Both the position numbers and the translations under genes were made by a program. Positions 5,344 to 33,982 of a DNA stretch of 64,000 nucleotides are shown piece after piece. The notes under the pieces were generated by a model. The model worked only from the letters and a program-made list of their open reading frames with translations, did no database searches and was not told the origin of the DNA. The first letter of the stretch is position 1; every line of letters begins with the position of its first letter. The DNA is from Candidatus Uhrbacteria bacterium (GTDB taxonomy: Bacteria; Patescibacteriota; Patescibacteriia; JACQRZ01), in assembly GCA_016206175.1 (NCBI GenBank), contig JACQSB010000028.1:2313-66312 (forward strand). Direction: 5' to 3'.

Positions 5344-6642
5344 TCAAACACCGGCAGCGGTTGTGGAGTGTAACATTGGTTCAAATTGAATCGGAAGGAG
5401 ACTCTTGCAGCGTTGGAATTTTTCCAAGAGTTCTTTCTGCGACTGTGCACCGATGTTGATGAGCCCGTAGCGGTAGCTCATGCCGTCTTGTATTTCTTCT
5501 GAAAGCGTATGATCGATAGAGCCAAATAGCTCAATACGCGCATCAGGCTCAGCTGCAAAGAGATGCTCTTTGTCGGTTTGCGTCGGCAAAGCGCGTACGA
5601 TGGAATCTTCAAATGTTCGGAGCACGCAGCTTGCAGCGATCGCGTAGTGGCCTTGATACGGCTCCCATTGCGGCCGTATGCCGCAGCACAGATCGAGAAG
5701 AATGGCATATGTGTTGACGCCATGCACTTTCTCGAACAGGTCAGCAAATTGCGACGAGAGCCGCGTGTTTACCTCAATGATCTTGATATCATCAGATGCG
5801 GGGTTGTACATCATCTCGATGTTCACCATGGCATTGTGATAACCGATCGCGCGCAGAAATGTCTGCGCGATATCTGTCATGCGCGAGCAAACTTTTTCGG
5901 AAAGAGCAGACGGAAACTCAAACCGTTGAAACGAATGTGTGTCGGGAAACATGATGGAATCCACTACGCCGATTAAAGTAAATGTCCCCTCGAACATATA
6001 CCCTTCCACTGTCACTTGGTGTCCTTCGAGAATTTCTTCTCCGATCAAGTAGTTCGCAGAAAGAGGATGGTCGGAATATCTCGCAAGGAGCTCATTGAAT
6101 GGCTGGAGTTTTGTACGGAAGTGTTGGTGTGATTGTTGAATGACAGCATTGAGCTGCCGGTCAGACGATACTTTTCTACTCAAAATGGAAAAGAACGATT
6201 TTACCGGCTTCACGAAAAAAGGATAGGGGAGTGGTGAGGTGTCGGGCGGCTGTGCCGATCCGACACCTCGCGTGGAGGACGGATCGATGAGGAAATACCG
6301 CGGTGCGGCGTGTGGAACCGTGCGTGTTTGCAATTCCCGCGATCGGTATTTGTGTTGGCATCCAAGGATGACAACAGGATCGGTATGAGGCAGGCAGCAT
6401 GCGCGGGCGGCGATATGCGAGATGATAGAACCCGGATAATCGTCACTGGAAATGATACCGTCTGGACGGTGCACTTGGCACCAACGGATCGTGCTTGCAA
6501 TGAGCGCATTCACATCAAGCGTATCAAGATATTCACTTGTGTCATCTCCGAGAAAGGATATGCCTACGCCATGCGCATCAGCGATACGGCCGAGCTCCCG
6601 CCTATCCCGCTCTGTTGGGCTTACGACAGCAATGTGTTTCAT
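5344..6642 (-). CDS. ATP-grasp domain ligase, substrate unknown
   Basis: 432 aa with a pre-ATP-grasp Rossmann-like N-terminus and an ATP-grasp core (FFVKP...EGY..G......IEVNTR). Confidence 0.6.
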   Translation of the reverse strand: MKHIAVVSPTERDRRELGRIADAHGVGISFLGDDTSEYLDTLDVNALIASTIRWCQVHRPDGIISSDDYPGSIISHIAARACCLPHTDPVVILGCQHKYRSRELQTRTVPHAAPRYFLIDPSSTRGVGSAQPPDTSPLPYPFFVKPVKSFFSILSRKVSSDRQLNAVIQQSHQHFRTKLQPFNELLARYSDHPLSANYLIGEEILEGHQVTVEGYMFEGTFTLIGVVDSIMFPDTHSFQRFEFPSALSEKVCSRMTDIAQTFLRAIGYHNAMVNIEMMYNPASDDIKIIEVNTRLSSQFADLFEKVHGVNTYAILLDLCCGIRPQWEPYQGHYAIAASCVLRTFEDSIVRALPTQTDKEHLFAAEPDARIELFGSIDHTLSEEIQDGMSYRYGLINIGAQSQKELLEKFQRCKSLLPIQFEPMLHSTTAAGV

Positions 6643-6719
6643 AAGAGATCTGCAAGCTAGCTTATCATTCCCCTTTTACTGGGCAAGTGGTATACTTTGA
6701 ATTTGTTAAATAAATAGAT

Positions 6720-7493
6720 ATGGAACAGCTTGATCCCCTATTTGTAGTTTACGCTTTTGTGGCAGGGATACTGACCTTTTTTGCTCCATGCACCTTGCCG
6801 CTTGTGCCGGCATACCTGGGATTTATCAGCGGCGTATCACCCACTGACTTTGCAGATCCGGCAAAAGCGCGCATAGCAAGGAAGAGAGTATTTTTGCATT
6901 GTTTGTTGTTTGTAGTCGGATTCAGTGCGGTATTTATTTTTTTTGGGACACTCATCGGCCTTGGCGGCATTGCGCTTACAAAATACCGGCCCGTTCTCCA
7001 GCAGGCAGGCGGCGTGCTTGTGATTTTTTTCGCGCTCTATTTGCTTGGCGTGCTGCGGCTGCCATTTTTACGATTTTTGGACAGCGAAAAACATTTTCCA
7101 CTCACGCGCATATTGAAGCCCGGCAAGCCATGGAATTCTTTTCTTTTTGGTGCTGCATTTGCATCAGGATGGACGCCATGTATCGGTCCCATTCTTGGTA
7201 GTATTCTGACAGCTGCAGCGACATCGACGCAAGTATGGCAAGGAGCAGGACTGCTGACGATTTATTCTCTTGGGTTGGGCGTTCCATTTTTGCTTGTTGC
7301 AGTTGGGATCGGTTCGACAAATACGTATCTTGTAAAGACGCAGCGGTTTTTGCCATGGGTATCCGTAATCGGCGGGATTTTTTTGCTTGTGTTGGGAATC
7401 CTCATCGTTACGAACAATATGAACATTTGGACAGGATTTTTCTATCGGAATCTCAATATCTTGCATTACGAACGGTTGCTGGATTATCTCTAA
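6720..7493 (+). CDS. ccdA: Cytochrome c-type biogenesis/thiol-disulfide transporter CcdA (DsbD family)
   Basis: Six TM segments with the conserved FFAPCTLPLVPAYLGFISG and WTPCIGPILG motifs. Confidence 0.8.
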   Translation: MEQLDPLFVVYAFVAGILTFFAPCTLPLVPAYLGFISGVSPTDFADPAKARIARKRVFLHCLLFVVGFSAVFIFFGTLIGLGGIALTKYRPVLQQAGGVLVIFFALYLLGVLRLPFLRFLDSEKHFPLTRILKPGKPWNSFLFGAAFASGWTPCIGPILGSILTAAATSTQVWQGAGLLTIYSLGLGVPFLLVAVGIGSTNTYLVKTQRFLPWVSVIGGIFLLVLGILIVTNNMNIWTGFFYRNLNILHYERLLDYL

Positions 7494-20753: not shown

Positions 20754-20776
20754 AGAGCCCCGCTACGTGGGGCTCT
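20754..20776. terminator. Bidirectional terminator hairpin between convergent genes
   Basis: AGAGCCCC-GCTACGT-GGGGCTCT is flanked by an A-run and a T-run. The stop codon of the minus-strand gene lies in the loop. Confidence 0.65.
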
Positions 20777-23177
20777 TTTTATGTCTGCGGTATACTGTGG
20801 TTGTCGGTGAGAAAATGCTTGGTGGTAAAAATAATTCTGCAAGTGAACTACGGGATGCGACCTTACCCTTCTTGCTTGCAGAAAGTCCGAGCCGCTCCAG
20901 ATACCGTTCCACGTGGTAGCGCGCATCGTCTTGTTGCTTCTCTTCATGGTAGAAGAATCCTGATTTTCCGTAAGCAGGAATAAAGATCTGTATTTCTTCA
21001 TCATATACTTTACCACCCGGAGACGTGAGCCGGATAACGAACTTCGACATTCGCACTTTGCCGCCGCTTCCAGCCCGCTCGCCTTGAAAGCGGTAATCCG
21101 TGCTCTGAGGCGTTGGGCTAAAATCAACAATTTTCATGTCCCACCCTTCTTTGACCTGTGCCCGCATTGTGTCGATGAAATCAAACACAAGCGCATGGTC
21201 GTCAACCTCTTTTGTTGCTTCGGCAAGACTGCCAGGCTCTTTCCCCTTTTTATAAGAAACAAGTTTCTGTTTTTTTCGTTCTAGCAATGAAGGGTCGCTT
21301 GATTCAACGATGAGCGCATGGCCAAAAAGGTCAGTCGGCTCTGCCGTGCCAAGGAAAATTTTACGCATGTAATCCTCGAATGTTTTTTCCGGACGTTTTG
21401 ATATGCGCGCAAGCATCTTTCGTCCATCGTGCAGCGTGATTTCCCGGACGCGGTCGCTGCGTTCTGTCGAAAAATGATACTTGCCTGACGTATCTTTCAT
21501 ATAGGCATCTCTCTGTGCTTGAGGAGTATTGTTGGTAATGATATCAACCATTTCGCCGTTTTTATCATATACGGTGACGAGTTGCGCACTGAATCGCGGA
21601 CCAGTGTTAATCGTATTCCAGATTTGTTGAAATGGTGCATCGCCCTGCTTGGATTTTTTTTCAAAATAGGGGAGAGACTTTGCTTCAATCATCATCATCA
21701 GAAGCTTTCGTCGCGCTTCGAAGGTAAGGCGAGTCAGTAAATCATCCGCATCGCGGCCGTCTTGTTCTGCTTCGCGGCGATATTTCTCAACAAGATTGCC
21801 GATACCAAGCGCTGTTTCTATAAGGTCGAGCGCGTCGCAATTTTCTATTTCATTTAACGATTCAATAAATGAAAGGCTTACTTGGTCTCCGATGCGGTCG
21901 GCAAAAATACGTTTGGCAACTCTCGATATGATAGTGTCTGCATATCTGCTCAAATACCGATACGCTTCCTTTGGGATTCCAAGATGGTTTTCTAGAAGTT
22001 CACGCGCTTGGTCTTCTGCTGTAAGATCTTCTTCGCCTGTTTCTCGCTCTTGTAGTGCACGAAGTTCGCGCACCTGGGTCTTACCTGCTTCAATGCTTTG
22101 TTCGAGAGCCTCCACCATGCTTTCGCTCCCGCCGGCTCCCTGTTGTCGTACCCGTTCGAGAATTCTGCTAATGTGGGGTCCGAGGAGATCGGATCGTTCC
22201 AGTACGCGAAAGGCCCGCAGCGGGATCGTACGGAGTTTCGGAATCAATTCAAGGAAACGGAATGATGACTCAATGATGTTTCCGTAGGCATCCATCTGCC
22301 GCAACTCTTCTACTAAGTTGGCGAGGCGGAGTGCTTCTTCTGCCTGCTCCGGGGTGATCTGATGCGTTTTTATGAATTCACTGTAGCGGCGTTCTACGTG
22401 TTCGAGCTGGCGGTCTGCTTCTTTAGCACTTTTCGGAATCGCGATCGCGTTAAGAAATGCCGTTTGCTGCTCTTGGAGAGCTAAGCCAAGATCAGGACCA
22501 TAGAGAGTGACGAGGCTTTCAATGACGTCTAATTTTTTTCGCATCTCGAGTCGCTTCATGGCATCCATCAGCTTACGTTTGCTTGCATCTGGAATCTCAA
22601 TGGATTCGCGCGGTGTGTTTGGGTTAGAGATATGCAGGAGTCGGGGACCATAACCGATGAGCGGAAGAACTTGGTAATGTAGCAGATTTTGCATTCCCTC
22701 TATGGAAAGGGGGATATAGCTTCGGCGCTCTCTTTCTTGGAGATGTTCGAGTTCATCAAACGGTGAGGCATGGGCATACCAAAACGATTCGTTGCGTCCG
22801 ATTGCGTTGCGCGCTGATCCGATAAAATGGTATGTAGCGCCTCGCACATAGCCGGCGTCGAATAATGCTGACTCGATCGGCTCGATCAGCTCATTTTTTT
22901 TCATGCCAGGCTTTATCGCCGTCTCGATCGCAGCGACTGGTTCCAGCGCATCAGCGCCGTCAGCGTTTTTGCCGAGCGCCATATAGCTTTGGGTAAAGGA
23001 AAGATTCTCGAGCGAAATCCCCTCCCTTATTTGACTGGCTATTGCTTCCGGCGATGCTGATTTGAGCACGAATGAATGCGCAACAATGGTCGTAGCCTTG
23101 CGTTCTCGTTTTGTATCCGGAGGTTTTGTGGCATCTCCTCCTGGTTCCGCGCCGTGATATCGTGTGCGTTCTTCCAT
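20763..23177 (-). CDS. Large (about 804 aa) hypothetical protein with possible C-terminal RelA/SpoT-like nucleotidyltransferase fold
   Basis: The long ORF has candidate starts at ATG 23177 or 23201; the track start at 23366 would overlap the divergent gene. The C-terminal motif string is detailed in the findings. Confidence 0.75.
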   Translation of the reverse strand: MEERTRYHGAEPGGDATKPPDTKRERKATTIVAHSFVLKSASPEAIASQIREGISLENLSFTQSYMALGKNADGADALEPVAAIETAIKPGMKKNELIEPIESALFDAGYVRGATYHFIGSARNAIGRNESFWYAHASPFDELEHLQERERRSYIPLSIEGMQNLLHYQVLPLIGYGPRLLHISNPNTPRESIEIPDASKRKLMDAMKRLEMRKKLDVIESLVTLYGPDLGLALQEQQTAFLNAIAIPKSAKEADRQLEHVERRYSEFIKTHQITPEQAEEALRLANLVEELRQMDAYGNIIESSFRFLELIPKLRTIPLRAFRVLERSDLLGPHISRILERVRQQGAGGSESMVEALEQSIEAGKTQVRELRALQERETGEEDLTAEDQARELLENHLGIPKEAYRYLSRYADTIISRVAKRIFADRIGDQVSLSFIESLNEIENCDALDLIETALGIGNLVEKYRREAEQDGRDADDLLTRLTFEARRKLLMMMIEAKSLPYFEKKSKQGDAPFQQIWNTINTGPRFSAQLVTVYDKNGEMVDIITNNTPQAQRDAYMKDTSGKYHFSTERSDRVREITLHDGRKMLARISKRPEKTFEDYMRKIFLGTAEPTDLFGHALIVESSDPSLLERKKQKLVSYKKGKEPGSLAEATKEVDDHALVFDFIDTMRAQVKEGWDMKIVDFSPTPQSTDYRFQGERAGSGGKVRMSKFVIRLTSPGGKVYDEEIQIFIPAYGKSGFFYHEEKQQDDARYHVERYLERLGLSASKKGKVASRSSLAELFLPPSIFSPTTTVYRRHKKSPT

Positions 23178-23306
23178 AATAATATCAGTGAAGCAGAACA
23201 TATGGCGTTTGACAAGCTTTCTTCTTCTTGCCGAACACGATTTATTTTCGTACACTGCTTTAGCGCTTATGGCAGATATTTTTTTACCAATAATACGGCA
23301 ACACGA

Positions 23307-24008
23307 ATGCAAGCAGTGATTTTGGCAGCAGGAGAAGGGACGCGTTTGCGGCCCCTGACCGAACATCGCCCCAAACCAATGGTTCCTATTGCAGGGAAAC
23401 CGATATTGGAATACACTCTTGGCATTTTGCCAAAGGCCATTGACGAAATTATTATCGTCACTGGCTATAAAGGTGAAAAAATTCGGGAGTACTTCGGGAA
23501 TTCGTTTGGCGGAAAGCCGATCATCTATGTCGAGCAGCCGGATAGAAAAGGCACGGCGGATGCGATCGAAAAAGCATTACCGCATCTGAAAGGTGAGTAT
23601 TTTATGGTTGTTTCCGGCGATGATTTGTACCATCCCGATGACTTGGAGAAATGCGTGATTGGATCACAGCAGACGATTTTGGTAAAAGAAACCGACCAGC
23701 CCGAACGTTTTGGTATCTGTCTGGTCGGTAAAGATGACCTTTTGGAAGGATTGGTGGAAAAACCGAAAAACCCACCGTCAAACCTTGCGAATGTCGGCGT
23801 GTATGTATTACATCAAGATATTTTTAAAATTCCGAAAGTCATAGACGAAAAAGGGGAGCATGTACTTGCTCCAAAGATAGGTGAACTTGCAAAGATGCGT
23901 CCGACAAAAGTGATCCGCGCGCAATTTTGGCATCCGGTCGGATACCCGGAGGATATTGAGACAGGCACAAAGTATCTGCAAACAAGTAAAGAAGAGAGGA
24001 AGAATTAA
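23307..24008 (+). CDS. Sugar-phosphate nucleotidyltransferase (RmlA/GlmU N-terminal-type)
   Basis: MQAVILAAGEGTRLRPLT signature at the internal ATG 23307, plus VSGDDLY. Confidence 0.8.
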   Translation: MQAVILAAGEGTRLRPLTEHRPKPMVPIAGKPILEYTLGILPKAIDEIIIVTGYKGEKIREYFGNSFGGKPIIYVEQPDRKGTADAIEKALPHLKGEYFMVVSGDDLYHPDDLEKCVIGSQQTILVKETDQPERFGICLVGKDDLLEGLVEKPKNPPSNLANVGVYVLHQDIFKIPKVIDEKGEHVLAPKIGELAKMRPTKVIRAQFWHPVGYPEDIETGTKYLQTSKEERKN

Positions 24009-24966: not shown

Positions 24967-26151
24967 CTATCCCGCCCAGTACCAATGCACGAATCGGATC
25001 CAAAGTTGTATCGTGAGCCAAAGAGATATCAAGGTAATTGCCGCATTCATCGCTTTCGAGCGCGTCCCGATTTGTCCTAACAACAGAAAGTGAGGAAATG
25101 ATAGAGCTACATACCGTATCATGGACATTGTTGATCCTGTCAGCAAAGGAAATACAACAAGCAGAATCGAATATACCGCATAGGAGAGGCGGAATCGTTG
25201 TACGATAACGATCGACATACCAAGAAATAAAATCATTGCTACCAGATCAAGCTGGGAGTACTGAAAACTGTGGAAGGGAATTTCAGCGAATCGCTGCAAT
25301 CTATCGCCAATAAGCATCGCGGCGTCAAAAAGCGAACCCAACTGGCGCCCCCAGCTTTGCGCATTGCTTTGAAAATACACAAAAGGATTTCCAGTGATGA
25401 AAACAAGGTACGCGTAATAGGTTGCAAATCCGAGTGGCGCAGCACTTGCTGATAGCAAGTTCTTCAATGCTGATCTGTTTAACGGCCGGCGGCCATGTTG
25501 TTGCCACCATTCGATTGCAAGCGGAAAAAATAACAGCACACCTTGCGGTCGCGCAAGGGCGGCGAGGTATGCCCATAGACCAGCGGTAGCGAATCTGCCG
25601 CGGCGCACACACAGAATGCTTGCAAGCGATAGCGCAAAAAAGAGAGCCTCCGTGTATGCAACGGAAAAAAATATGCTTGAAGGAAAAATGAGGAAATACC
25701 AGACACTCCTCTTGGCTGCGGCAGACGGCATTTCCATACTTGCGATAGCGTAGAGTAGGATCACACTGGCTAGCGCGCCGACAAAAGAGATCGTAAGCGC
25801 TGCGGCGAGCGGCGAGCCTCCGAAAAGCGGCATGAACATGGCGATCAGGAGTGGATACAGCGGAAAGAATGCGTAAGATTTTTTTTGTTCAAGTTCAGTT
25901 GAAAAATTACTATACCCGTTTTGCGCAATATGGAGATACCATTGGCCATCATATGCGGCAAGGCTTCGGGAAAGCGGATCGCCTGCTTTTTCGTAATGAT
26001 AGCCATTGATCGCGTAATCATATTCACTGAATGGAATGAGAGGATATGTCGCAAGAATGAGCGCGAAAAAAGCGATCTTTACCGCAAAAAAGAGGGCTAT
26101 GATTTTTTTGTATTTTTGCCAGAATGTTCGTATCATATAGGTGTATGCCAT
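24967..26151 (-). CDS. Polytopic glycosyltransferase-like membrane protein (PIG-V/mannosyltransferase-like)
   Basis: About 10 TM segments and an AYDGQWYLHIAQNGY loop motif reminiscent of PIG-V-type GT-C enzymes. ATG 26151 overlaps the archease start by 7 nt; the alternative start is ATG 26136. Confidence 0.6.
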   Translation of the reverse strand: MAYTYMIRTFWQKYKKIIALFFAVKIAFFALILATYPLIPFSEYDYAINGYHYEKAGDPLSRSLAAYDGQWYLHIAQNGYSNFSTELEQKKSYAFFPLYPLLIAMFMPLFGGSPLAAALTISFVGALASVILLYAIASMEMPSAAAKRSVWYFLIFPSSIFFSVAYTEALFFALSLASILCVRRGRFATAGLWAYLAALARPQGVLLFFPLAIEWWQQHGRRPLNRSALKNLLSASAAPLGFATYYAYLVFITGNPFVYFQSNAQSWGRQLGSLFDAAMLIGDRLQRFAEIPFHSFQYSQLDLVAMILFLGMSIVIVQRFRLSYAVYSILLVVFPLLTGSTMSMIRYVALSFPHFLLLGQIGTRSKAMNAAITLISLWLTIQLWIRFVHWYWAG

Positions 26152-26555
26152 TTTTTATTTTACCACACACAGCCGACGTTCGCCTGAAAGTGTGGGGAAA
26201 AGATTATGAAGAGGTATTTCGCGCAGCATTGCTTGGCATGTCGGCGATTCAGAAAAAAGCCATTCCGACAAAAGACGCAGATTTCATCGAACGTACCATA
26301 TCCGTCGAGGCTTCCGATGGTACCGCGCTTCTGGTTGATTTTCTTAACGAGGTGCTTTCGCTGTGTGCGATCAATAAAGAGTGGTACTTCGATGGGGTGT
26401 TTGAGCGTCTCACCGCAACAAGCCTTCACGTAACATTGCACGGCATTGCTATCTCGGATTTTGACGAGGATATTAAAGCAGTAACATACCATGAGGCAAA
26501 TCTGCAGAAAAATGAAAAAGGGGAATGGGAGACGATAATTGTTCTCGACATATAA
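26145..26555 (+). CDS. Archease (RtcB activator)
   Basis: N-terminal PHTADVRLKVWG and C-terminal IKAVTYHEANL motifs. Confidence 0.85.
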   Translation: MPFFILPHTADVRLKVWGKDYEEVFRAALLGMSAIQKKAIPTKDADFIERTISVEASDGTALLVDFLNEVLSLCAINKEWYFDGVFERLTATSLHVTLHGIAISDFDEDIKAVTYHEANLQKNEKGEWETIIVLDI

Positions 26556-26559
26556 CACT

Positions 26560-27090
26560 ATGACACGCCGTATATTTTTCGGTATTCCAATCGAGGAGAA
26601 TCTGCAAGAAAAGATCGCGGCGTGGCGCAAGAAATACGAACGCCTTGCGGTACGGTGGGTTAAGCCGAATAACCTCCATGTTACACTCATCCCGCCGTGG
26701 GACGAAGAGGATATCGACAGCGTGATTCGACTGCTTGAACATTCAACGGCTAAAGCGGTTGAGCCGTTGACATTGCAGTTTACGCGCGTTGCGTATGGAC
26801 CTTCTTTGAGAGAACCACGTCTGATATGGGCGGAAGGGGTAGCGCCACACGGTTTGTTAACATTAAAAAATTGGTGCGAGAGCGTCCTTGGTGTGTCTGC
26901 CGATACCCGTCCTTTCCTCCTTCATTTGACGCTTGCGCGGTTTCGGCCGGAAACGTTTTCTTCCTTTCCGGTGAAGAAACTTGACGAATCAGTATCCTGG
27001 AGTCAGACGTGCTCGTCTGTGGTTCTCTACGAATCAAATCTTCTGCCCGGCGGAGCAGAGTACACTGTCCTTTTTCGAAGGCAACTATGA
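26560..27090 (+). CDS. thpR: RNA 2',3'-cyclic phosphodiesterase (2H family, ThpR/LigT)
   Basis: Two HxTx motifs (HVTL and HLTL) at the expected spacing. Confidence 0.85.
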   Translation: MTRRIFFGIPIEENLQEKIAAWRKKYERLAVRWVKPNNLHVTLIPPWDEEDIDSVIRLLEHSTAKAVEPLTLQFTRVAYGPSLREPRLIWAEGVAPHGLLTLKNWCESVLGVSADTRPFLLHLTLARFRPETFSSFPVKKLDESVSWSQTCSSVVLYESNLLPGGAEYTVLFRRQL

Positions 27091-28493
27091 TCCCTCGACC
27101 AGTATTCAAAAAAATTCATGACTGGCTTTGGGAGATCCCAAAGAGTTTTCGTGCCGACATGCGCGTGCCAGCGTGCGTGTATGCAACCGAGCACATGCTT
27201 GATGACATCCGTCGCGACCGATCAATGGATCAGCTGATCAATGTCGCAACGCTCCCCGGCATCCAACAATATGCACTCGCTATGCCTGACGCTCACGAGG
27301 GGTACGGTTTTCCGATCGGCGGTGTCGCTGCTATGGATGCCAGCGAGGGCGTGATCTCTCCTGGCGGAATCGGGTATGATGTCAACTGCGGGGTGCGGTT
27401 GTTGCGGTCCACGAAAACAATTGACCAGGTTCGTGAAAAAACAGATGCTCTCGCGTCGGCACTCTATCGTGATGTGCCGTCAGGAGTGGGGAGGGGGGGG
27501 CGTTTGATCTTGCGCGGCAACGATCTTGATGCCGTATTGCAACACGGCGCACATCGCATGGTGGAGCTCGGGTATGGAGAAAAAGCGGATTTGGAACATC
27601 TTGAGTCTACCGGACGTCTTGAGGATGCAGATCCATCGCTCGTGTCAGATACAGCAAAGAAACGCGGTGCGGATCAGCTTGGTACGATGGGGGCAGGGAA
27701 TCATTTTGTAGAAGTGCAGTATGTCGAGACGGTGTTTGATACAGCAGCCGCTGCACAACTTGGCTTGTTCGCGCGGCAGGTCGTTGTCATGATTCATACC
27801 GGTTCACGCGGACTAGGGCATCAGATTGCGACAGATTATATCCGCCTTATGATGAAAGTGATGCCCAAGTACGGCATCACTCTGCCGGATCGTGAACTTG
27901 CTTGCGCGCCATTTTCGTCTCCAGAAGGCCAGCAGTATTTTCATGCCATGGCAGCAGGCGCAAATTTCGCCTGGGCAAATCGGCAACTCATCACATGGGA
28001 AGTGCGGAAAAGCTGGCAAGAAGTAATGGGTAATACAGGTGGAGGCCTATCTGTCATCTATGATGTTGCCCATAATTTGGGTAAACTGGAAGATCATATC
28101 ATTAGCGGTGAGAAAAGACGCATGATTGTGCATCGGAAAGGTGCAACACGGGCATTTCCGGATCAGCCGGTACTGATCCCGGGAAGTATGGGCACTGCAT
28201 CGTATGTGCTCCTTGGCCTTCCGCAAGCAATGGAGCAAACATTTGGTTCGTCATGCCATGGCGCGGGCCGTCGAATGTCGCGCAGCCAAGCAAAACGGGA
28301 AGTGCGCGGATCGGAGCTGAAGCAAGAGATGAAAGCGCAGGGTATTGCTGTAGCTTCTGGATCTCTTTCGGGTCTTGCCGAGGAAGCGCCGGTGGCGTAT
28401 AAAGATGTTGACGAAGTCGTCGACGTGGTGCATGCGGCAGGCATTGCCAAAAAAGTCGCGTGTATGCGCCCGATCGCAGTAATAAAGGGATAA
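27087..28493 (+). CDS. rtcB: RNA-splicing ligase RtcB
   Basis: GYDVNCGVRLL, GSRGLGHQ, HNLG and CHGAGR motifs. ATGA overlap with thpR. Confidence 0.95.
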   Translation: MIPRPVFKKIHDWLWEIPKSFRADMRVPACVYATEHMLDDIRRDRSMDQLINVATLPGIQQYALAMPDAHEGYGFPIGGVAAMDASEGVISPGGIGYDVNCGVRLLRSTKTIDQVREKTDALASALYRDVPSGVGRGGRLILRGNDLDAVLQHGAHRMVELGYGEKADLEHLESTGRLEDADPSLVSDTAKKRGADQLGTMGAGNHFVEVQYVETVFDTAAAAQLGLFARQVVVMIHTGSRGLGHQIATDYIRLMMKVMPKYGITLPDRELACAPFSSPEGQQYFHAMAAGANFAWANRQLITWEVRKSWQEVMGNTGGGLSVIYDVAHNLGKLEDHIISGEKRRMIVHRKGATRAFPDQPVLIPGSMGTASYVLLGLPQAMEQTFGSSCHGAGRRMSRSQAKREVRGSELKQEMKAQGIAVASGSLSGLAEEAPVAYKDVDEVVDVVHAAGIAKKVACMRPIAVIKG

Positions 28494-28508
28494 TATCCTA
28501 TATTCCCT

Positions 28509-29228
28509 ATGCCAGAACTCGGATATCCTCAAAATGATTTTATCAAAGCCGTGAAGCGGGAAGTGGGTAAGCTTCCAGCCGGGCACGAATGGCTGGCGAC
28601 AAGCGCATTGAGCGGCATATATGATCGGGATCTCAAGGGAATGCTTGGCTCCGGACAAGAATGCATTGTTGTACGTGATCCGTCTGGCAAGCGAGATACG
28701 ATCGCCGTTGCCTTTAATTATCGGGATAAAGAAATGACGCCGGAGAAGGCGAAGGGCATTTTTTATTTACAGCGTATTTTTTCAACATTATTTCCGCATA
28801 ATTTTCCGCATTTTTATTTTGCCGCAGGGAAGCCTGAAAAATCAAAACGAGAAAAAGATGCCATTGCCCCGACCGGCACGATCCGCCAACGAATCGCTAA
28901 ATTGAAACCCGGCGAGCATGGGTATAATGCAGATCCGATAATACGTTATCCCTTTGATAGAGTTGAGGAGATATGCAGACAACAATTTCATATCTACATA
29001 GATGCTGATGTTTATCTCGAAAATTTTATCATCGGTGCGGATGGGGGCGAATATTATGTTGATACTCTTTGGCCAGAAGAATACGAAGGCAAATTTACAT
29101 CAAATGTTACAGAGAGAATAATACATTACATGAAAACTGGCCACTATACGGAAAATGAAATTTCGGTTGTTAAAAAAAGCATCGCTCGATTTCGCGAATT
29201 GTGGGACAGCAGCAAAGAGGAGAGATAA
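28509..29228 (+). CDS. Hypothetical protein with protein-kinase-like motif spacing
   Basis: It has a G-loop-like GSGQECIVV and DVYLEN (D-x4-N), followed by VDT with the Asp 13 residues after the Asn. There is no clear VAIK lysine. Confidence 0.6.
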   Translation: MPELGYPQNDFIKAVKREVGKLPAGHEWLATSALSGIYDRDLKGMLGSGQECIVVRDPSGKRDTIAVAFNYRDKEMTPEKAKGIFYLQRIFSTLFPHNFPHFYFAAGKPEKSKREKDAIAPTGTIRQRIAKLKPGEHGYNADPIIRYPFDRVEEICRQQFHIYIDADVYLENFIIGADGGEYYVDTLWPEEYEGKFTSNVTERIIHYMKTGHYTENEISVVKKSIARFRELWDSSKEER

Positions 29229-29258
29229 AAAAAGCAACCCCGACAAAGCGCCGGGGCG
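29227..29258 (-). terminator. Weak terminator for the minus-strand orphan gene
   Basis: CCCCG and CGGGG form a stem (29238-29256) followed on the minus strand by TTGCTTTTTTT. Confidence 0.4.
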
Positions 29259-29314: not shown

Positions 29315-30091
29315 TCAGTATGGCCCCCAGCCGGAGCGCATGATGCTCACCCCGCGTGGCGTGACCAGGATCGCGTCGCAGCCGTAAAACGGCTGGTTAA
29401 TGATGTCCTGCACGCCACCGAAGAAGTCGTCTTGCGTCCGACGGTACATCTCCGCGAATGCCCATGCGAAAAGCTGGGCGTACACCGGCGAAAGGATGAA
29501 CGTGAGCGGCTGCTCCGGTCCGAGACGATCGCAAGCTTCGAATTCAACGAGGTGCTTCAGGAGAGCAGTAATGACATCCTCCAGGTACCACTGGAACGTC
29601 GTCTTGCTATTGATCCTGCAGCCCCCATGGCTGCTATCGAGGTGCTCCGCGAGGATCGAGCGTCGCGTCTCGCCCCAGATCACTTGCTCGTGCCGGCCAC
29701 TCCAGCCACCATTGTGATTGAAGGCGCCGAGTTCGGGGAGCACGACATGCTTGATGATCCCTGAAAATTCCAGTTTTCCCATCGTCTGTACTGCATATTC
29801 CGTAAGTGGCACGACGATCACCCCTGGTCTGCGGAAGCTGCTACTCTCCATCCACCCCCAGTTCGCGTAGTCGATCTGCCGTTGGGCTTCGCCGCCGATG
29901 ACACGGCGGGTATCTAGCTCGCGTACTCGCATGTGTTCGTATTGCGGTTCTTCCTGCAGATCCCATGGCTCCATCGTTTCCGGAGCCACGATCACCAGTA
30001 TGCTCTTGCTCGGAATGAGCTGCGCGAGCCCCTCGAGTTTTCCCTTTGCCAAGGTGTCCTGAGTCAGGATCTTTCGAGCCTTGTGACTCAT
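29315..30091 (-). CDS. Hypothetical 258-aa protein (GC-richer orphan)
   Basis: The internal ATG 30091 is preceded by AAGGAAGG; the track start is 30139. No family was recognised. Confidence 0.6.
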   Translation of the reverse strand: MSHKARKILTQDTLAKGKLEGLAQLIPSKSILVIVAPETMEPWDLQEEPQYEHMRVRELDTRRVIGGEAQRQIDYANWGWMESSSFRRPGVIVVPLTEYAVQTMGKLEFSGIIKHVVLPELGAFNHNGGWSGRHEQVIWGETRRSILAEHLDSSHGGCRINSKTTFQWYLEDVITALLKHLVEFEACDRLGPEQPLTFILSPVYAQLFAWAFAEMYRRTQDDFFGGVQDIINQPFYGCDAILVTPRGVSIMRSGWGPY

Positions 30092-30239
30092 GGTGTCCTT
30101 CCTTTCTCTATATGTGTTTCCTATCTCTACCGAGTCCATGAGATATTTCCAATCCCATCAACTCGATAGAGATAACATTCAAATCATCTGTTTGTAAGGA
30201 ACAGTAATGTGCTACAGACGCTACGCTTAATTTCTATTG

Positions 30240-30318: not shown

Positions 30319-32613
30319 ATGATCCGTACGAGGAACCTCCTCTTTTTTTGCATGAGTATCGCAATACTTTTTGCCTACTCAACAGGCGGTGTTTTTGCAA
30401 GCGGGAAGCCGGGGTGGGGTTCATGGTCTACCGAAAAAGGGCCACATACGGTGCGATTCGACGGGTCTCTTTCTGATTCACTTTATGGCATCGTGAAGTA
30501 TGGAACAACCATTCAGATGGAGCGGGAAGCGAAGAGTAAGACGAAAAATAAGACTCAATCTGTTCTTCTCCAGAACCTACAGCCAAACACAGTATATTAT
30601 TACATTCTCGGCGTTGAAGATGATAATGGTGTGCGTACCATGGCAGAGACTGCCGATACCTTTACCACGACAGCCGAAGGCAAACCCGAAATCCCTGAAA
30701 AAGAAGTATATCCAGCTGGAACCATTCCTGTCGGCATTACCATAAAACTTCCGGGGCCATCGTATACGCCCATCAATGAGCTCGAATCAAGCACTCTCAA
30801 AATGCCGAACATCAATCGAGTCGACCTTACAGTGAACTCTGATTCTGCACGCGCAACGTGTTCGATTACCAGTGCTGCTTCAAAGGATGATTGGGTGGCA
30901 TCGCAAATAGAGTACGGACTTGCCGCAGATAAGCAGCCGTTCCAGGAGCAGTTTAATTGGGGCTTTAGAGAGTCATGGTGTAAACGGGAAGCTCTCCTGA
31001 AAGGGTTGCCAAGCAACTCTTCAATCTTTTTCCGGATTTTTGCCGCCTATCGAAAGTATGATGGTGTTGATATACAGGCGTATTCCCGGCCGGTATCTTT
31101 TCAGACGCCTGAAAAAGGAGGCGCTGCCGTCAGCCTGTCATTTACCGATATTGATGCTCCCCGCATTATCGATACGTTGTTGGTTCGAGAGGCGCGCTCC
31201 GCTGTGCTTTCGTTTAAGACAACACGGCCGGCATCAGTATGGGGATCGTATTCGAAACAACCGGCAATCAATGGAGAATATCAAGAAGTAGACGGTGTGA
31301 TCCCCCGCGGATCATTATCACTGACTCATCGTTTTGTGTTTGAAGATCTTAAAGAGGATTCTGTATACCCGCTTGAACTATGGGTAGAAGATGAAAAAGG
31401 CGCCGGCATTCGTCTTACGTTCAACATGCAGACCCGACCGCTTGATCCAACACTTGACACTCAAGACTCGAACAAATTCCAATTTGATTCCACACGGCAA
31501 AGCCTTCGTCCAGTTCCGGGAAAAACGCCACCCTACGAAGAGCGAACCATACCGAAAGGAAGCCCGGTCAAGTTAAGCTGGGAAAGTTCTGGCAGTGGGT
31601 GCGAAGCCCGCGGTGCATGGAGTGGAGCAAAACCTGCAAAAGGATCAGCAGTGATAACACCACAAGAAACGGGGACCTATGAGATGCGTTGTATCGTGAA
31701 TGGCATTGAACGAAGGAAATCAATCTCATTGACAGTAGTGGATCCTCCTGATTTTACGTTTACTGTTTCAAAAGGTGAACTTGCAGCTGATGGGAAATTG
31801 CCCATAGCCCTTGAGTGGGATGCGTCTTTTATGGAGACATGTTTTGCATCAAATAAGGGTGCCTATTTTGAACAACTGCCCAAGACATGGACGGCAACTC
31901 CACTCGCGCTGAAGGGGAGTGAGCGATTCTTTGCCGCAAATTATTCGATGGAATTTAGCCTCGAATGTACATGGCACAGTGCGCCGTACGCAAAGCGCGT
32001 GAGTATTCCTGCGACTTCGAAGCCTGGCAGCAGTGCATCGGCGCAGAGCACATCGACTCCCGCCAAAGAACCAAAAGTCACTGCATCTTCGACATCAACA
32101 CCACCTACTCAATTTCAGTCCTCCACACCCACGGAACTTCCTCCAGGGGCTTTTCCGCCGCCGCATTTTTACAACTTTTCTTTTCCACCCGGCACGTTCC
32201 CACCGTTGCCTGAAACAGCTCAACCACCTTTTTCGCGACCTGCATTTGGCAGTCTCGGTGGAAGTATACAGCAAGGTGACCAACCGAAAACTTTAAATCC
32301 AAAGAAGGTATCGACAACAAAGACCAAAAACGGCAGTAATGCACCAGCAACAAAAAAGAAACCAGTTCTTACATTTACTGCCACGAAGTATAAGGTAAAA
32401 CCAAAGGAGAAATTTACCTTGAGCTGGAATGCGCCGGGATATACATCGTGTTTATTGTTAAGCGGAGAAGGCGATATCATTTCTGACGCAATGAAACAAA
32501 AAGGTTCGTTGACGCTTACTCAAGCAGATACAACGGTGGACTACTTGTTGCAGTGTTTTAAGAAAAAGAAGTATGTTTCGAAAAAAATAACCATCACATT
32601 GTCGAAGCCTTGA
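30319..32613 (+). CDS. Secreted/surface repeat protein (764 aa) with beta-rich modules, a Pro-rich linker and three two-Cys modules
   Basis: Signal peptide (LFFCMSIAILFAYSTGGVFASG), a Pro/Ser/Thr-rich stretch and repeated SW..(x)C...C modules. Confidence 0.8.
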   Translation: MIRTRNLLFFCMSIAILFAYSTGGVFASGKPGWGSWSTEKGPHTVRFDGSLSDSLYGIVKYGTTIQMEREAKSKTKNKTQSVLLQNLQPNTVYYYILGVEDDNGVRTMAETADTFTTTAEGKPEIPEKEVYPAGTIPVGITIKLPGPSYTPINELESSTLKMPNINRVDLTVNSDSARATCSITSAASKDDWVASQIEYGLAADKQPFQEQFNWGFRESWCKREALLKGLPSNSSIFFRIFAAYRKYDGVDIQAYSRPVSFQTPEKGGAAVSLSFTDIDAPRIIDTLLVREARSAVLSFKTTRPASVWGSYSKQPAINGEYQEVDGVIPRGSLSLTHRFVFEDLKEDSVYPLELWVEDEKGAGIRLTFNMQTRPLDPTLDTQDSNKFQFDSTRQSLRPVPGKTPPYEERTIPKGSPVKLSWESSGSGCEARGAWSGAKPAKGSAVITPQETGTYEMRCIVNGIERRKSISLTVVDPPDFTFTVSKGELAADGKLPIALEWDASFMETCFASNKGAYFEQLPKTWTATPLALKGSERFFAANYSMEFSLECTWHSAPYAKRVSIPATSKPGSSASAQSTSTPAKEPKVTASSTSTPPTQFQSSTPTELPPGAFPPPHFYNFSFPPGTFPPLPETAQPPFSRPAFGSLGGSIQQGDQPKTLNPKKVSTTKTKNGSNAPATKKKPVLTFTATKYKVKPKEKFTLSWNAPGYTSCLLLSGEGDIISDAMKQKGSLTLTQADTTVDYLLQCFKKKKYVSKKITITLSKP

Positions 32614-32657: not shown

Positions 32658-32778
32658 TCGATGCTATCAAGAGTCCGGCGAGGGAACTGGCCCTATGACC
32701 CGGCGACAACCCTACGTGTTTGCGCAAGCAGATAACAGAAGGTGTCAATTCCAGCCCGAAAGGGAAAGATACCATGGT
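32658..32778 (+). promoter_or_regulatory. SAM-I (S-box) riboswitch aptamer
   Basis: CTATCAAGAG-TCCGGC-GAGGGA-ACTGGCCC-TATGACCCGGCGACAACC...GGTGTCAATTCCAGC...GAAAGATACC matches the S-box consensus blocks. It lies upstream of metK. Confidence 0.9.
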
Positions 32779-32887: not shown

Positions 32888-33982
32888 ATGATGTACAACG
32901 ACCGCAATTCGTACACAGTAGAGAGTGTGACCTCCGGTCATCCCGATAAAATTTGCGATCAGATCTCTGACGCAGTACTCGATGAGTGCTTGAAGCAGGA
33001 TCCTTATTCACGGGTCGCTGTTGAAACCTTTGGTTGCCATGGGCTGCTTGTCGTTGGAGGTGAGTTGACCAGTTCCGCGAAAGTTGACTTTGAAGCAGTC
33101 GCGCGAGGAGTATATCGCGATATCGGGCATGATGGTGATCTGGAGGTCAAAACGCGTGTGGTGCAACAGTCGCCGGATATCGCGCAAGGAGTGGATACCG
33201 GCGGTGCCGGAGATCAGGGCATCATGTACGGCTACGCAACAGATGAGACGCCGGAGTATTTGCCAAGCGCAGTGGTGAAAGTGCACGAGCTTGCCCGCGG
33301 CTTGGAACACTTGCGGCGTACCAACCCTCTTTTTTCTTGGGTAAAACCGGATGGTAAGACGCAGGTTACCATGCGTGATGGCCGGATTGCTACGGTATTG
33401 ATCAGCACCCAGCATGATGAGGCGATAGACCAAGCAGCGATCAAAGAGCTTTTGACAGAACATCTTATCAAACCAACAATCGGGGATCTTGGCGGTATCG
33501 AAATCCTGGTAAATCCGACCGGCAAATTTGTGCTCGGTGGATTTGACGCCGATGCGGGGCTTACGGGCCGTAAGCTCATGGTGGATACGTATGGAGGGTT
33601 GATCCCCCATGGCGGCGGTGCGTTCTCCGGGAAGGACGCGACAAAAGTGGATCGTTCTGCGGCATATATGGCGCGCTTTGCGGCGAAAAATGTAGTGGCA
33701 AATGGGTATGCAAAACGATGCCTGGTGTCAGTGGCATACGCGATTGGCCGTGTAGAGCCGTTGATGGTGGAAGCAGTAAATGAAAATGGCGAGAGCATTG
33801 CGGATGTGGTGCAAGAGAAATTTGATTTTCGCCCTCGCGCAATCATTGACCGGCTTGGATTGCGGCGGCCGGTGTATCGCTCCACCGCGGCATACGGACA
33901 TTTTACGGATGTACATGCGCCGTGGGAGCAGGTAACTGATTTATCTGCCGTGAGTGTAAATGAGAAAGTCGCGGTTTTATAA
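32888..33982 (+). CDS. metK: S-adenosylmethionine synthase
   Basis: GHPDKICDQISDAVLD, GAGDQGIMYGYA and GGGAFSGKD motifs. Confidence 0.95.
   Translation: MMYNDRNSYTVESVTSGHPDKICDQISDAVLDECLKQDPYSRVAVETFGCHGLLVVGGELTSSAKVDFEAVARGVYRDIGHDGDLEVKTRVVQQSPDIAQGVDTGGAGDQGIMYGYATDETPEYLPSAVVKVHELARGLEHLRRTNPLFSWVKPDGKTQVTMRDGRIATVLISTQHDEAIDQAAIKELLTEHLIKPTIGDLGGIEILVNPTGKFVLGGFDADAGLTGRKLMVDTYGGLIPHGGGAFSGKDATKVDRSAAYMARFAAKNVVANGYAKRCLVSVAYAIGRVEPLMVEAVNENGESIADVVQEKFDFRPRAIIDRLGLRRPVYRSTAAYGHFTDVHAPWEQVTDLSAVSVNEKVAVL

What the first reader, a model, noticed from the sequence alone, without database searches (positions are those of the whole stretch)
26145..29228. Archease-ThpR-RtcB RNA-repair operon followed by a kinase-like orphan
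Archease, a 2H cyclic phosphodiesterase and RtcB are packed tightly, with a 4-nt gap and then an ATGA overlap. After a further 15 nt comes a 239-aa protein of unknown family. Its motif spacing mimics a protein-kinase-like fold: GSGQECIVV (G-loop-like), DVYLEN (Asp-x4-Asn as in the catalytic loop) and VDT with the Asp 13 residues after the Asn (DFG-like position). A kinase-fold enzyme attached to an RtcB cassette could act on RNA or nucleotide 5'-OH ends, or could regulate the ligase. Combining ThpR (which opens 2',3'-cyclic phosphate) with RtcB (which uses it) in one operon is itself functionally intriguing.
Basis: partly seen in the sequence, partly recalled or inferred. Interest (0 to 1): 0.55.

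Follow-up and report, generated by a model that had tools for sequence, protein, structure and literature searches.

The report
RtcB RNA-ligase cassette beside unrelated kinase-fold gene
A standard RNA-ligation gene set (archease, a cyclic phosphodiesterase, RtcB) in a Candidatus Uhrbacteria genome lies next to a small uncharacterised protein that does have a protein-kinase-like fold, but related genomes show the two are neighbours by local rearrangement, not as a conserved unit.

Summary
Archease (26145-26555), ThpR/LigT (26560-27090), RtcB (27087-28493) and a 239-aa orphan (28509-29228) lie on the + strand, separated by a 4-nt gap, an ATGA overlap and a 15-nt gap.

The kinase-fold guess is also supported. 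Two AlphaFold models (pLDDT 88.7 and 91.5) hit only protein-kinase-like structures: Rio2, PRPK, APH, NleH1 and T7 gp0.7-like kinases. A profile-profile alignment to T7 gp0.7 (P = 1.8e-4; controls 0.17-0.37) places D167, N172 and D185 on the kinase catalytic Asp, Asn and metal-binding Asp. These residues are 95-99% conserved in 166 homologues. The beta3-Lys/alphaC-Glu pair is absent throughout the family.

The functional link to RtcB is not supported. Of about 60 non-redundant loci that carry a homologue, only one has rtcB nearby, and there an opposite-strand gene and a toxin-antitoxin pair lie between them. The closest relative has deleted the cassette, leaving an archease stub, but kept the orphan.

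The orphan therefore belongs to an unannotated family of atypical minimal kinase-fold proteins, seen so far almost only in CPR genomes, with unknown substrate. The archease-RtcB pairing is already known. ThpR between them recurs only sporadically in CPR. Overall interest is moderate to low.

The parts
26145..26555 (+). Archease (136 aa), the RtcB activation cofactor. The N-terminus MPFFILPHTAD carries the conserved HTAD motif.
   Evidence: PF01951 E=1.3e-25 over residues 5-136. 60% identical to the archease of the syntenic locus L066.
26560..27090 (+). ThpR/LigT-type 2H RNA 2',3'-cyclic phosphodiesterase (176 aa). Both HxT motifs are present (H40-V-T42, H122-L-T124).
   Evidence: TIGR02258 E=1e-22 (80.9 bits, cut-off 65.7) and PF02834/PF13563. 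PDB sequence hits to ThpR structures 5ldi and 4qak. Motifs read directly from the translation.
27087..28493 (+). RtcB 3'-phosphate/5'-OH RNA ligase (468 aa) of the archaeal/eukaryal type, which depends on archease.
   Evidence: PF01139 E=2.8e-163. 562 bits to Pyrococcus horikoshii RtcB PH1602. The stretches around that enzyme's metal-binding and GMP-accepting residues (named from my own knowledge as D95, C98, H203, H234, H329, H404) are conserved in the printed alignment.
28509..29228 (+). 239-aa orphan, a member of an unannotated family of minimal protein-kinase-like-fold proteins found almost only in CPR.
   Evidence: 54 homologues and 595 clusters at 50% identity. AF2 pLDDT 88.7, pTM 0.87. 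Foldseek top hits are all kinases. hhalign against T7 gp0.7 gives P=1.8e-4.
28647..28670 (+). Codons for G47-V54, the glycine-rich-loop equivalent (GSGQECIV). G49 is 99% conserved, E51 87% and V54 91%.
   Evidence: Aligned to LGNGHFS of gp0.7 and IGEGTYGV of CDK2.
28791..28808 (+). Codons for F95-P-H-N-F-P100, the most conserved motif of the family (P96 and P100 100%, N98 and F99 99%). By position it matches the 'HPN' alphaC-beta4 loop motif of eukaryote-type kinases.
   Evidence: Aligned to LNHPNIV of CDK2. That alignment is colinear but not significant on its own.
28884..28886 (+). Codon for R126 on strand beta5, 99% conserved. It is a candidate replacement for the missing beta3 lysine (inferred).
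   Evidence: Positions 68-71, where the beta3 Lys would sit, hold A, F/I/Y, N/S/D and Y, never a conserved Lys.
29007..29024 (+). Codons for D167-VYLE-N172, the catalytic-loop D-x4-N equivalent.
   Evidence: D167 95% and N172 99% conserved. Aligned to DMHSGN of gp0.7 and to D127...N132 of CDK2.
29061..29063 (+). Codon for D185, the equivalent of the DFG metal-binding Asp, 13 residues after N172. PKA has the same spacing (N171 to D184).
   Evidence: 99% conserved. Aligned to the TDP Asp of gp0.7 and to D145 of CDK2.
29237..29257 (.). GC-rich hairpin between the convergent orphan and 274-aa genes. A T-run follows it on the - strand and an A-run precedes it on the + strand. It probably marks the end of both transcription units.
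   Evidence: Terminator-like site; sequence.

Best explanation
Two separate things lie next to each other. (1) Archease-ThpR-RtcB is an RNA-end ligation cassette. [quoted passage not shown] Archease speeds up its guanylylation so that it can turn over repeatedly. The 2H enzyme ThpR hydrolyses 2',3'-cyclic phosphates. The E. coli enzyme makes 2'-phosphate ends that RtcB cannot seal, so ThpR here is more likely a competing or gating activity, or a cyclic-nucleotide scavenger, than a feeder for RtcB (inferred). (2) The 239-aa gene is an independently inherited, fast-evolving member of a family found almost only in CPR. It has a minimal protein-kinase-like fold: a G-rich loop, an HPN-like alphaC-beta4 motif, a catalytic-loop Asp-x4-Asn and a DFG-type Asp. 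The beta3-Lys/alphaC-Glu pair is missing. The invariant R126 on beta5, and K82/R89 on one face of alphaC, are the likely phosphate-binding substitutes (inferred). The most likely function is an atypical Mg-ATP-dependent phosphotransferase or ATPase of the Rio/Bud32/gp0.7 minimal class, acting on an unknown protein or small-molecule substrate. In this genome it is probably co-transcribed with rtcB, given the 15-nt gap and no detectable promoter. That adjacency comes from a lineage-specific rearrangement, not from a conserved functional module.
For: Cassette: family hits; conserved catalytic stretches of RtcB and 562 bits to P. horikoshii RtcB; the archease-RtcB operon is documented in PMC3973293 and PMC4604427. 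Fold: AF2 pLDDT 88.7 and 91.5 for two members. The top 50 Foldseek PDB hits for both models are all kinase-like (Rio2 E=1.1e-4 prob 1.0, PRPK, PknB, OspG, HopBF1, APH(2''), Mph, NleH1 with TMt 0.55). The viral library hits T7-like protein kinases. hhalign of the family against 77 gp0.7 homologues gives P=1.8e-4 over 205 columns with D167/N172/D185 on DMHSGN...TDP; four controls give P=0.17-0.37. Conservation. No linkage: none of 20 genome loci has rtcB, archease or thpR within 6 kb. Of 67 loci (60 non-redundant) only L066 does. In L066 the order is RtcB | 268-aa gene (-) | MazE-PIN | orphan. L001 keeps the orphan next to the glycosyltransferase with only a decayed archease 5' stub: MPFTILSHTSD, DNA local score 31 against shuffles 17.2 +/- 2.2, 0 of 500 reaching it. 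There is no family-wide conserved neighbour. Rate, window against L066: orphan 52% identical, RtcB 82%, the 764-aa neighbour 72%, ThpR 64%.
Confidence: 0.68

Rival explanations
1. The orphan is a working part of the RNA-repair module, either a kinase-fold enzyme acting on RNA or nucleotide 5'-OH ends or a regulator of RtcB/archease.
For: A 15-nt gap after rtcB, the same strand, and no promoter-like site between the genes. In L066 the orphan lies 1.7 kb downstream of rtcB. In L001 the deletion leaves the orphan behind the archease promoter region and stub. In other clades the neighbours are often nucleic-acid enzymes: RecJ directly upstream in 6-7 loci and RNase HI directly downstream in 3-5.
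Against: About 58 of 60 non-redundant loci have no rtcB, archease or thpR in up to 6 kb of flank. The orphan is retained after cassette loss (L001). In L066 an opposite-strand gene and a toxin-antitoxin pair separate it from rtcB. The other archease-ThpR-RtcB cassette found (L152) is followed by RsmE and QueA, not by this family. RtcB needs a 5'-OH end, so 5' phosphorylation would block ligation (PMC4201822). All known polynucleotide kinases are P-loop enzymes (own knowledge), and no Walker A motif is visible in the sequence.
Confidence: 0.07
2. The orphan is a non-catalytic pseudokinase: a nucleotide-binding switch or scaffold that keeps the fold but does not transfer phosphate.
For: No conserved Lys at the beta3 position (68-71 are A, F/I/Y, N/S/D, Y), and a hydrophobic residue or Tyr where the alphaC Glu would be. 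The strongest conservation is in a structural motif, FPHNFP.
Against: D167, N172 and D185, the residues that do the chemistry and bind Mg in kinases, are 95-99% conserved across very divergent members that are otherwise 27-50% identical. Pseudokinases typically lose them (own knowledge). An invariant Arg (R126) and conserved K82/R89 are available to bind phosphate.
Confidence: 0.2
3. The kinase-like assignment is an artefact: an over-confident AF2 model combined with weak Foldseek similarity.
For: TM-scores of 0.3-0.45 with rmsd of 8-15 A. No HMMER-level hit to any kinase in Pfam or PDB. The hhalign probability is only 48%.
Against: Two independent models with pTM 0.87 and 0.89 give only kinase-fold hits among the top 50 in two libraries. 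Sequence-only profile-profile evidence gives P=1.8e-4 against controls of 0.17 or higher. Five kinase motifs appear in colinear order with the exact PKA spacing D-x4-N-x12-D.
Confidence: 0.05

Closest known systems
Archease-RtcB 'tRNA splicing operon' (Desai et al. 2014, PMC3973293; PMC4604427)
   Same: Archease and an archaeal/eukaryal-type RtcB on one strand in a tight operon. The stretches around the RtcB catalytic residues are conserved.
   Different: A ThpR/LigT 2H phosphodiesterase sits between archease and RtcB. The host is a CPR bacterium, and the window has no tRNA genes, so no intron-bearing tRNA is seen here. The same three-gene order was found in only 2 further loci, L066 and L152.
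E. coli ThpR (RNA 2',3'-cyclic phosphodiesterase; PMC4201822)
   Same: The same 2H family (TIGR02258 above cut-off), two HxT motifs and a similar length.
   Different: Sequence similarity to the E. coli enzyme is weak (37 bits). It is embedded in an RtcB operon even though the E. coli enzyme's 2'-PO4 product is not an RtcB substrate. The regiochemistry of the CPR enzyme is untested.
Minimal or atypical protein-kinase-like enzymes: RIO kinases (Rio2), Bud32/PRPK, phage T7 gp0.7, and the effector kinases OspG, NleH and HopBF1
   Same: A small bilobal kinase fold of about 200-240 aa with no activation segment or substrate-binding subdomains, a G-rich loop, a catalytic D-x4-N and a metal-binding Asp. 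These are the best Foldseek hits and the only significant profile-profile match.
   Different: No HMMER-detectable sequence similarity. It lacks the beta3 Lys and alphaC Glu, which to my knowledge all of those enzymes keep. It has its own invariant features: FPHNFP, R126, the DGGEYY turn, and an N-terminal MPE. It is seen almost only in CPR and has no conserved partner gene.
Small-molecule kinases of the APH / macrolide phosphotransferase / UbiB-like (Rv3197) group
   Same: They also appear among the top Foldseek hits for the second model (E = 2e-4 to 1e-3), so a small-molecule substrate is as possible as a protein one.
   Different: Those enzymes have much larger helical C-lobes (about 300-400 aa in total) and, to my knowledge, keep the Lys-Glu pair. 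TM-scores on the target are 0.23-0.29.

Membership tests
Protein-kinase-like (PKL) fold superfamily | A bilobal fold: an N-lobe of five strands plus helix C, and a C-lobe with helix E, the catalytic loop and the beta7-beta8 hairpin. | tested here: met
   The AF2 secondary-structure order matches. All top-50 Foldseek hits in the PDB (two models) and in BFVD are kinases, with probabilities up to 1.00. Caveat: TM-scores are 0.3-0.55.
Protein-kinase-like (PKL) fold superfamily | A glycine-rich nucleotide-binding loop between beta1 and beta2. | tested here: met
   G47-x-G49-x-E-x-x-V54, with G49 99% and V54 91% conserved. It aligns to the G-loops of gp0.7 and CDK2.
Protein-kinase-like (PKL) fold superfamily | The beta3 Lys (VAIK) paired with the alphaC Glu. 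| tested here: not met
   A68 is conserved, but positions 69-71 are F/I/Y, N/S/D and Y. The alphaC position aligned to the Glu is I90 (or Y86 in another register). No family member shows a conserved Lys-Glu pair.
Protein-kinase-like (PKL) fold superfamily | A catalytic-loop Asp-x4-Asn and a downstream metal-binding Asp (DFG-type). | tested here: met
   D167 95%, N172 99% and D185 99% conserved. The spacing equals that of PKA D166/N171/D184. They align to DMHSGN...TDP of gp0.7.
Protein-kinase-like (PKL) fold superfamily | ATP binding and phosphotransfer activity. | not testable with these tools
   Needs biochemistry. No model coordinates or ligand docking were available.
RIO kinase family (PF01163) and other curated kinase families | A sequence match to the family HMM above the gathering threshold. 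| tested here: not met
   None of 54 members hits any kinase family in Pfam, even at E<=5. NCBIfam gives nothing. An hmmsearch of the family profile against PDB sequences finds no kinase.
Polynucleotide 5'-kinase (T4 Pnk / Clp1 / Trl1-KIN type) | A P-loop NTPase fold with a Walker A motif GxxxxGK[ST]. | tested here: not met
   No Walker A motif is seen in the 239-aa sequence (read directly). The fold hits are kinase-like, not P-loop.
RtcB RNA-repair or splicing module (as an accessory component) | Conserved genomic linkage of the orphan family with rtcB or archease across lineages. | tested here: not met
   1 of about 60 non-redundant loci has rtcB within the flanks, and it is not adjacent there. 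The orphan is retained after deletion of the cassette in L001.
Archease-RtcB operon | An archease (PF01951) and an RtcB (PF01139) gene, co-directional and closely spaced, with the stretches around the RtcB catalytic residues conserved. | tested here: met
ThpR/LigT 2H phosphoesterases | Two HxT/S motifs and a match to TIGR02258 above its cut-off. | tested here: met
   H40-V-T42 and H122-L-T124 (translation). TIGR02258 scores 80.9 bits against a cut-off of 65.7.

The most novel reading that the evidence does not exclude
The orphan family could be a catalytically active kinase lineage, almost confined to CPR, that has rebuilt the ATP-phosphate clamp. An invariant Arg on beta5 and basic residues on alphaC would replace the universal beta3-Lys/alphaC-Glu pair. 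Its substrates could lie in nucleic-acid end processing, either the nucleic-acid ends themselves or the enzymes that handle them. That would explain its repeated placement next to RecJ and RNase HI in one clade and next to RtcB in another.
Probability: 0.1. Interest if true: 0.65.

Novelty: new variant of a known kind. Interest (0 to 1): 0.3.

Why it matters
The archease-RtcB pair is textbook and adds little. Two points have some value. First, a family of about 600 sequence clusters, seen almost only in Candidate Phyla Radiation bacteria and absent from Pfam, NCBIfam and PHROGs, can now be placed in the protein-kinase-like superfamily. It has an unusual active site: the catalytic Asp/Asn/Asp are kept, the Lys-Glu pair is lost, and an invariant Arg is gained. 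That gives a concrete starting point for biochemistry on a piece of CPR 'dark matter', and one more test case for how kinases work without the VAIK lysine. Second, a 2H cyclic phosphodiesterase sits inside an RtcB operon although its E. coli homologue makes 2'-phosphate ends that RtcB cannot join. This raises a small, testable question about end-chemistry gating in RNA repair. Neither point answers a long-standing question.

Tried and rejected
- Sequence searches of the orphan against Pfam, NCBIfam, PHROGs, PADLOC and PDB sequences, both as a single sequence and as a family profile, found nothing meaningful. The nanobody and BUB1 hits are chance matches.
- Domain fusions: the longer family members (P0033 at 412 aa and others) have no recognisable extra domain.
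- Conserved neighbourhood: all-against-all clustering of neighbours in 67 loci, plus a Pfam census of 100 flanking genes, found only a clade-restricted RecJ / RNase HI association and otherwise scattered housekeeping genes. I considered a DNA/RNA-end function on that basis and kept it only as a low-probability reading. Those RecJ-linked loci form one clade (RecJ 65-71% identical), and CPR genomes are rich in information-processing genes anyway.
I used it only to show that the motifs are colinear.
- I considered whether the cassette was inserted in the window lineage rather than deleted in L001. I rejected this because L001 keeps a statistically supported archease 5' stub.
- Literature searches found no description of this family or of an archease-ThpR-RtcB trio. 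The Burroughs and Aravind survey of RNA-repair systems was not in the library, so prior mention there cannot be excluded.

Full report
**Source and observation**

The window is from a Candidatus Uhrbacteria (CPR/Patescibacteria) contig. The orphan protein is 100% identical to NCBI HY622_04115, annotated 'hypothetical protein'.

Four co-directional ORFs occupy 26145-29228:
- archease, 26145-26555
- ThpR/LigT, 26560-27090
- RtcB, 27087-28493
- a 239-aa ORF, 28509-29228

Family assignments for the first three genes are firm:
- Archease: PF01951, E=1.3e-25.
- ThpR: TIGR02258 at 80.9 bits, above its 65.7 cut-off, plus PF02834. Both HxT motifs are present (H40-V-T42, H122-L-T124).
- RtcB: PF01139, E=2.8e-163. 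It is the archaeal/eukaryal, archease-dependent type. It scores 562 bits against Pyrococcus horikoshii RtcB, and the stretches around that enzyme's catalytic residues are conserved.

**The orphan is a real, conserved protein family**

It has no hit in Pfam, NCBIfam, PHROGs, PADLOC or PDB sequences.

It has 54 homologues in the 90%-clustered database. A profile search finds 595 clusters at 50% identity, 231 of them with E<=1e-30. Nearly all are single-domain proteins of 200-260 aa.

Every informatively named source is a Patescibacteria lineage: Uhrbacteria, Paceibacterota, Levyibacteriota, Shapirobacteria or Saccharibacteria. A few automated bins are labelled Gammaproteobacteria or Pseudomonadales, and I did not verify those labels.

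| Residue(s) | Conservation |
|---|---|
| G49 | 99% |
| D167 | 95% |
| N172 | 99% |
| D185 | 99% |
| F95-P-H-N-F-P100 | 79-100% (H97 79%, the other five 98-100%) |
| R126 | 99% |
| Y86 | 92% |
| K82 | 84% (plus 8% Arg) |
| R89 | 81% (plus 10% Lys) |
| E51 | 87% |
| N-terminal Met-Pro-Glu | Pro 83%, Glu 72% |

**Fold**

AlphaFold2 on the family alignment gave a confident model (pLDDT 88.7, pTM 0.87). A second model, for a 42%-identical Paceibacterota member, was also confident (pLDDT 91.5, pTM 0.89).

Foldseek found only protein-kinase-like structures among the top 50 hits in three searches:
- First model against the PDB: Rio2 1zar (E=1.1e-4, prob 1.00), PknB, PRPK, OspG, HopBF1, p38 and RNase L.
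- Second model against the PDB: PRPK, Rv3197, APH(2''), macrolide phosphotransferases, Rio2, and NleH1 with a target TM of 0.55.
- First model against the viral library: T7-like gp0.7 kinases and other phage 'protein kinase' entries.

TM-scores are low (0.30-0.45 on the query), so I looked for sequence-level support. I built a profile from 77 T7 gp0.7 homologues taken from viral contigs.
- hhalign aligned it to the family over 205 columns with P=1.8e-4.
- That alignment puts the G-loop on LGNGHFS, D167...N172 on DMHSGN, and D185 on the TDP Asp.
- Four controls (reversed profiles and an unrelated family) gave P=0.17-0.37.

A comparison with CDK2/PKA was not significant but was colinear motif by motif:
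- A68 corresponds to the VAIK Ala.
- N98 and P100 correspond to the HPN loop.
- D167 corresponds to the HRD Asp.
- N172 corresponds to the catalytic-loop Asn.
- D185 corresponds to the DFG Asp.

The D-x4-N-x12-D spacing is the same as PKA D166/N171/D184. I conclude, with about 90% confidence, that the fold is kinase-like.

**What is atypical about the active site**

The beta3 lysine and the alphaC glutamate are absent from the whole family. Positions 69-71 are F/I/Y, N/S/D and Y. The alphaC position that aligns to the Glu is hydrophobic.

The conserved basic residues lie elsewhere:
- R126 is on beta5. T124 and R126 alternate with less-conserved residues, which suggests they face the same side, probably the inner one.
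- K82, Y86 and R89 fall at i, i+4 and i+7 on helix C, so they lie on one helical face.

I infer that these residues replace the Lys-Glu clamp, but I could not show it because no coordinates were available. Keeping the catalytic Asp, the Asn and the metal-binding Asp at 95-99% across members that are otherwise only 27-50% identical argues for catalysis rather than a dead pseudokinase. This step is an inference, and I put it at about 55-60%.

**Linkage to RNA repair**

- A GTDB-wide scan returned 20 loci with a homologue, and none has rtcB, archease or thpR within 6 kb.
- Adding 45 metagenome loci and two look-up loci gave 67 loci (60 non-redundant). Only L066 has rtcB nearby.

L066 is a close Uhrbacteria relative, with an orphan 52% identical to the window's. 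Its gene order is: glycosyltransferase (-) | archease-LigT-RtcB (+) | 268-aa gene (-) | MazE-PIN (+) | orphan (+) | 790-aa gene (+). The 268-aa gene is the homologue of the window's 274-aa gene, which in the window lies downstream of the orphan. The RtcB-orphan junction in the window is therefore a local rearrangement.

In the closest relative, L001 (orphan 60% identical), the cassette is gone. The 182 nt between the glycosyltransferase and the orphan keep a decayed archease 5' end. It reads MPFTILSHTSD, against MPFTILPHTAD in L066. The DNA local alignment score is 31, against 17.2 +/- 2.2 for shuffles, with 0 of 500 shuffles reaching it. The cassette was deleted and the orphan was kept.

Across the family, the only recurrent neighbours are RecJ directly upstream (6-7 loci) and RNase HI directly downstream (3-5 loci). 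All of these come from one Paceibacterota clade. The remaining neighbours are scattered housekeeping genes.

Mechanistically, RtcB needs a 5'-OH end (PMC4201822). A 5'-kinase would therefore block ligation rather than help it.

The orphan also evolves faster than its neighbours. Between the window and L066 it is 52% identical, against 82% for RtcB, 72% for the 764-aa protein and 64% for ThpR.

**The cassette itself**

Archease-RtcB operons are well documented (PMC3973293 and PMC4604427).

ThpR between the two genes is less usual. Of nine sampled CPR ThpR homologues, only one (L152, a Pacebacteria lineage, 46% identical) has the same archease-ThpR-RtcB order. The other eight stand alone, several of them among RNA-modification genes.

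E. coli ThpR converts RNA 2',3'-cyclic phosphate ends to 2'-PO4, and RtcB is inert on that product (PMC4201822). If the CPR enzyme behaves the same way, it competes with RtcB rather than feeding it. It could act as a gate, or as a scavenger of 2',3'-cyclic nucleotides. This is untested.

**Transcription**

No promoter-like site lies between rtcB and the orphan. A GC-rich hairpin at 29237-29257 sits between the orphan and the convergent 274-aa gene. Co-transcription with the cassette is therefore likely in this genome, but that is a property of this lineage only.

**Verdict**

- The kinase-fold prediction is supported.
- The functional attachment to RtcB is not supported.

The orphan is best described as a member of an unannotated family of atypical minimal kinase-fold proteins, seen almost only in CPR, with unknown substrate. 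It is a new variant within a very well-known superfamily, next to an already known RNA-ligation operon. Interest is moderate to low (0.3).

Noticed in passing
window 32661-32775 (+), upstream of 32888-33982: A SAM riboswitch (RF00162, 62.9 bits, E=3e-12) directly precedes a 364-aa S-adenosylmethionine synthetase gene. The homologous ORF in L066 carries the S-AdoMet_synt Pfam domains.
   Followed up: no
window 26136-26151 against 26145; L066 3869/3876: The divergent glycosyltransferase (PIG-V-like, PF04188) and archease start codons are only about 6-8 nt apart, or overlap if the longer glycosyltransferase start is used. The promoter of each must therefore lie inside the other gene's coding sequence. 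A TATCAT box at 26131-26136 would give a nearly leaderless archease mRNA (speculative).
   Followed up: partly
L001 5825-5960: A deletion scar. A 45-codon decayed ORF begins MPFTILSHTSD, the archease N-terminus. It sits where the archease-ThpR-RtcB cassette lies in the window and in L066.
   Followed up: yes
L066 7364-7988; L067 248-896: A MazE-type antitoxin plus PIN-domain toxin pair (VapBC-like) lies directly upstream of the orphan homologue in a close relative, between it and the RtcB cassette. The pair is absent from the window.
   Followed up: no
L003, L022, L023, L026, L029, L034 (orphan flanks): In one Paceibacterota clade the orphan homologue is tightly sandwiched between RecJ (2-28 nt upstream) and RNase HI (overlapping downstream), sometimes followed by ComEC. 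RecJ is 65-71% identical among these loci, while the orphan is only 35-51%.
   Followed up: partly
window 28509-28523; family alignments A1 and A4: The family's extreme N-terminus Met-Pro-Glu-(Leu/Ile)-Gly is strongly conserved (Pro2 83-90%, Glu3 72%). It resembles the MPELPEV catalytic N-terminus of Fpg/Nei glycosylases (own knowledge), although the fold is unrelated. No explanation was found.
   Followed up: no
window 20763-23366 (-), 29315-30139 (-), 30319-32613 (+): Three further proteins of 867, 274 and 764 aa have no significant family assignment. The 764-aa protein has only a sub-threshold Pur_ac_phosph_N/FN3-like N-terminal hit and a hydrophobic N-terminus. They are conserved at 56-86% identity in the Uhrbacteria relatives found here: the 867-aa protein in L001 and L066, the 274-aa protein in L066, and the 764-aa protein in L053, L066 and L067.
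   Followed up: no
L020 5767-6797: The orphan homologue is split into two overlapping ORFs (5767-6321 and 6300-6797). This suggests a frameshift, a pseudogene or an assembly error.
   Followed up: no
P0033 / L039 1358-2635: One family member carries a C-terminal extension of about 190 aa with no Pfam match.
   Followed up: partly
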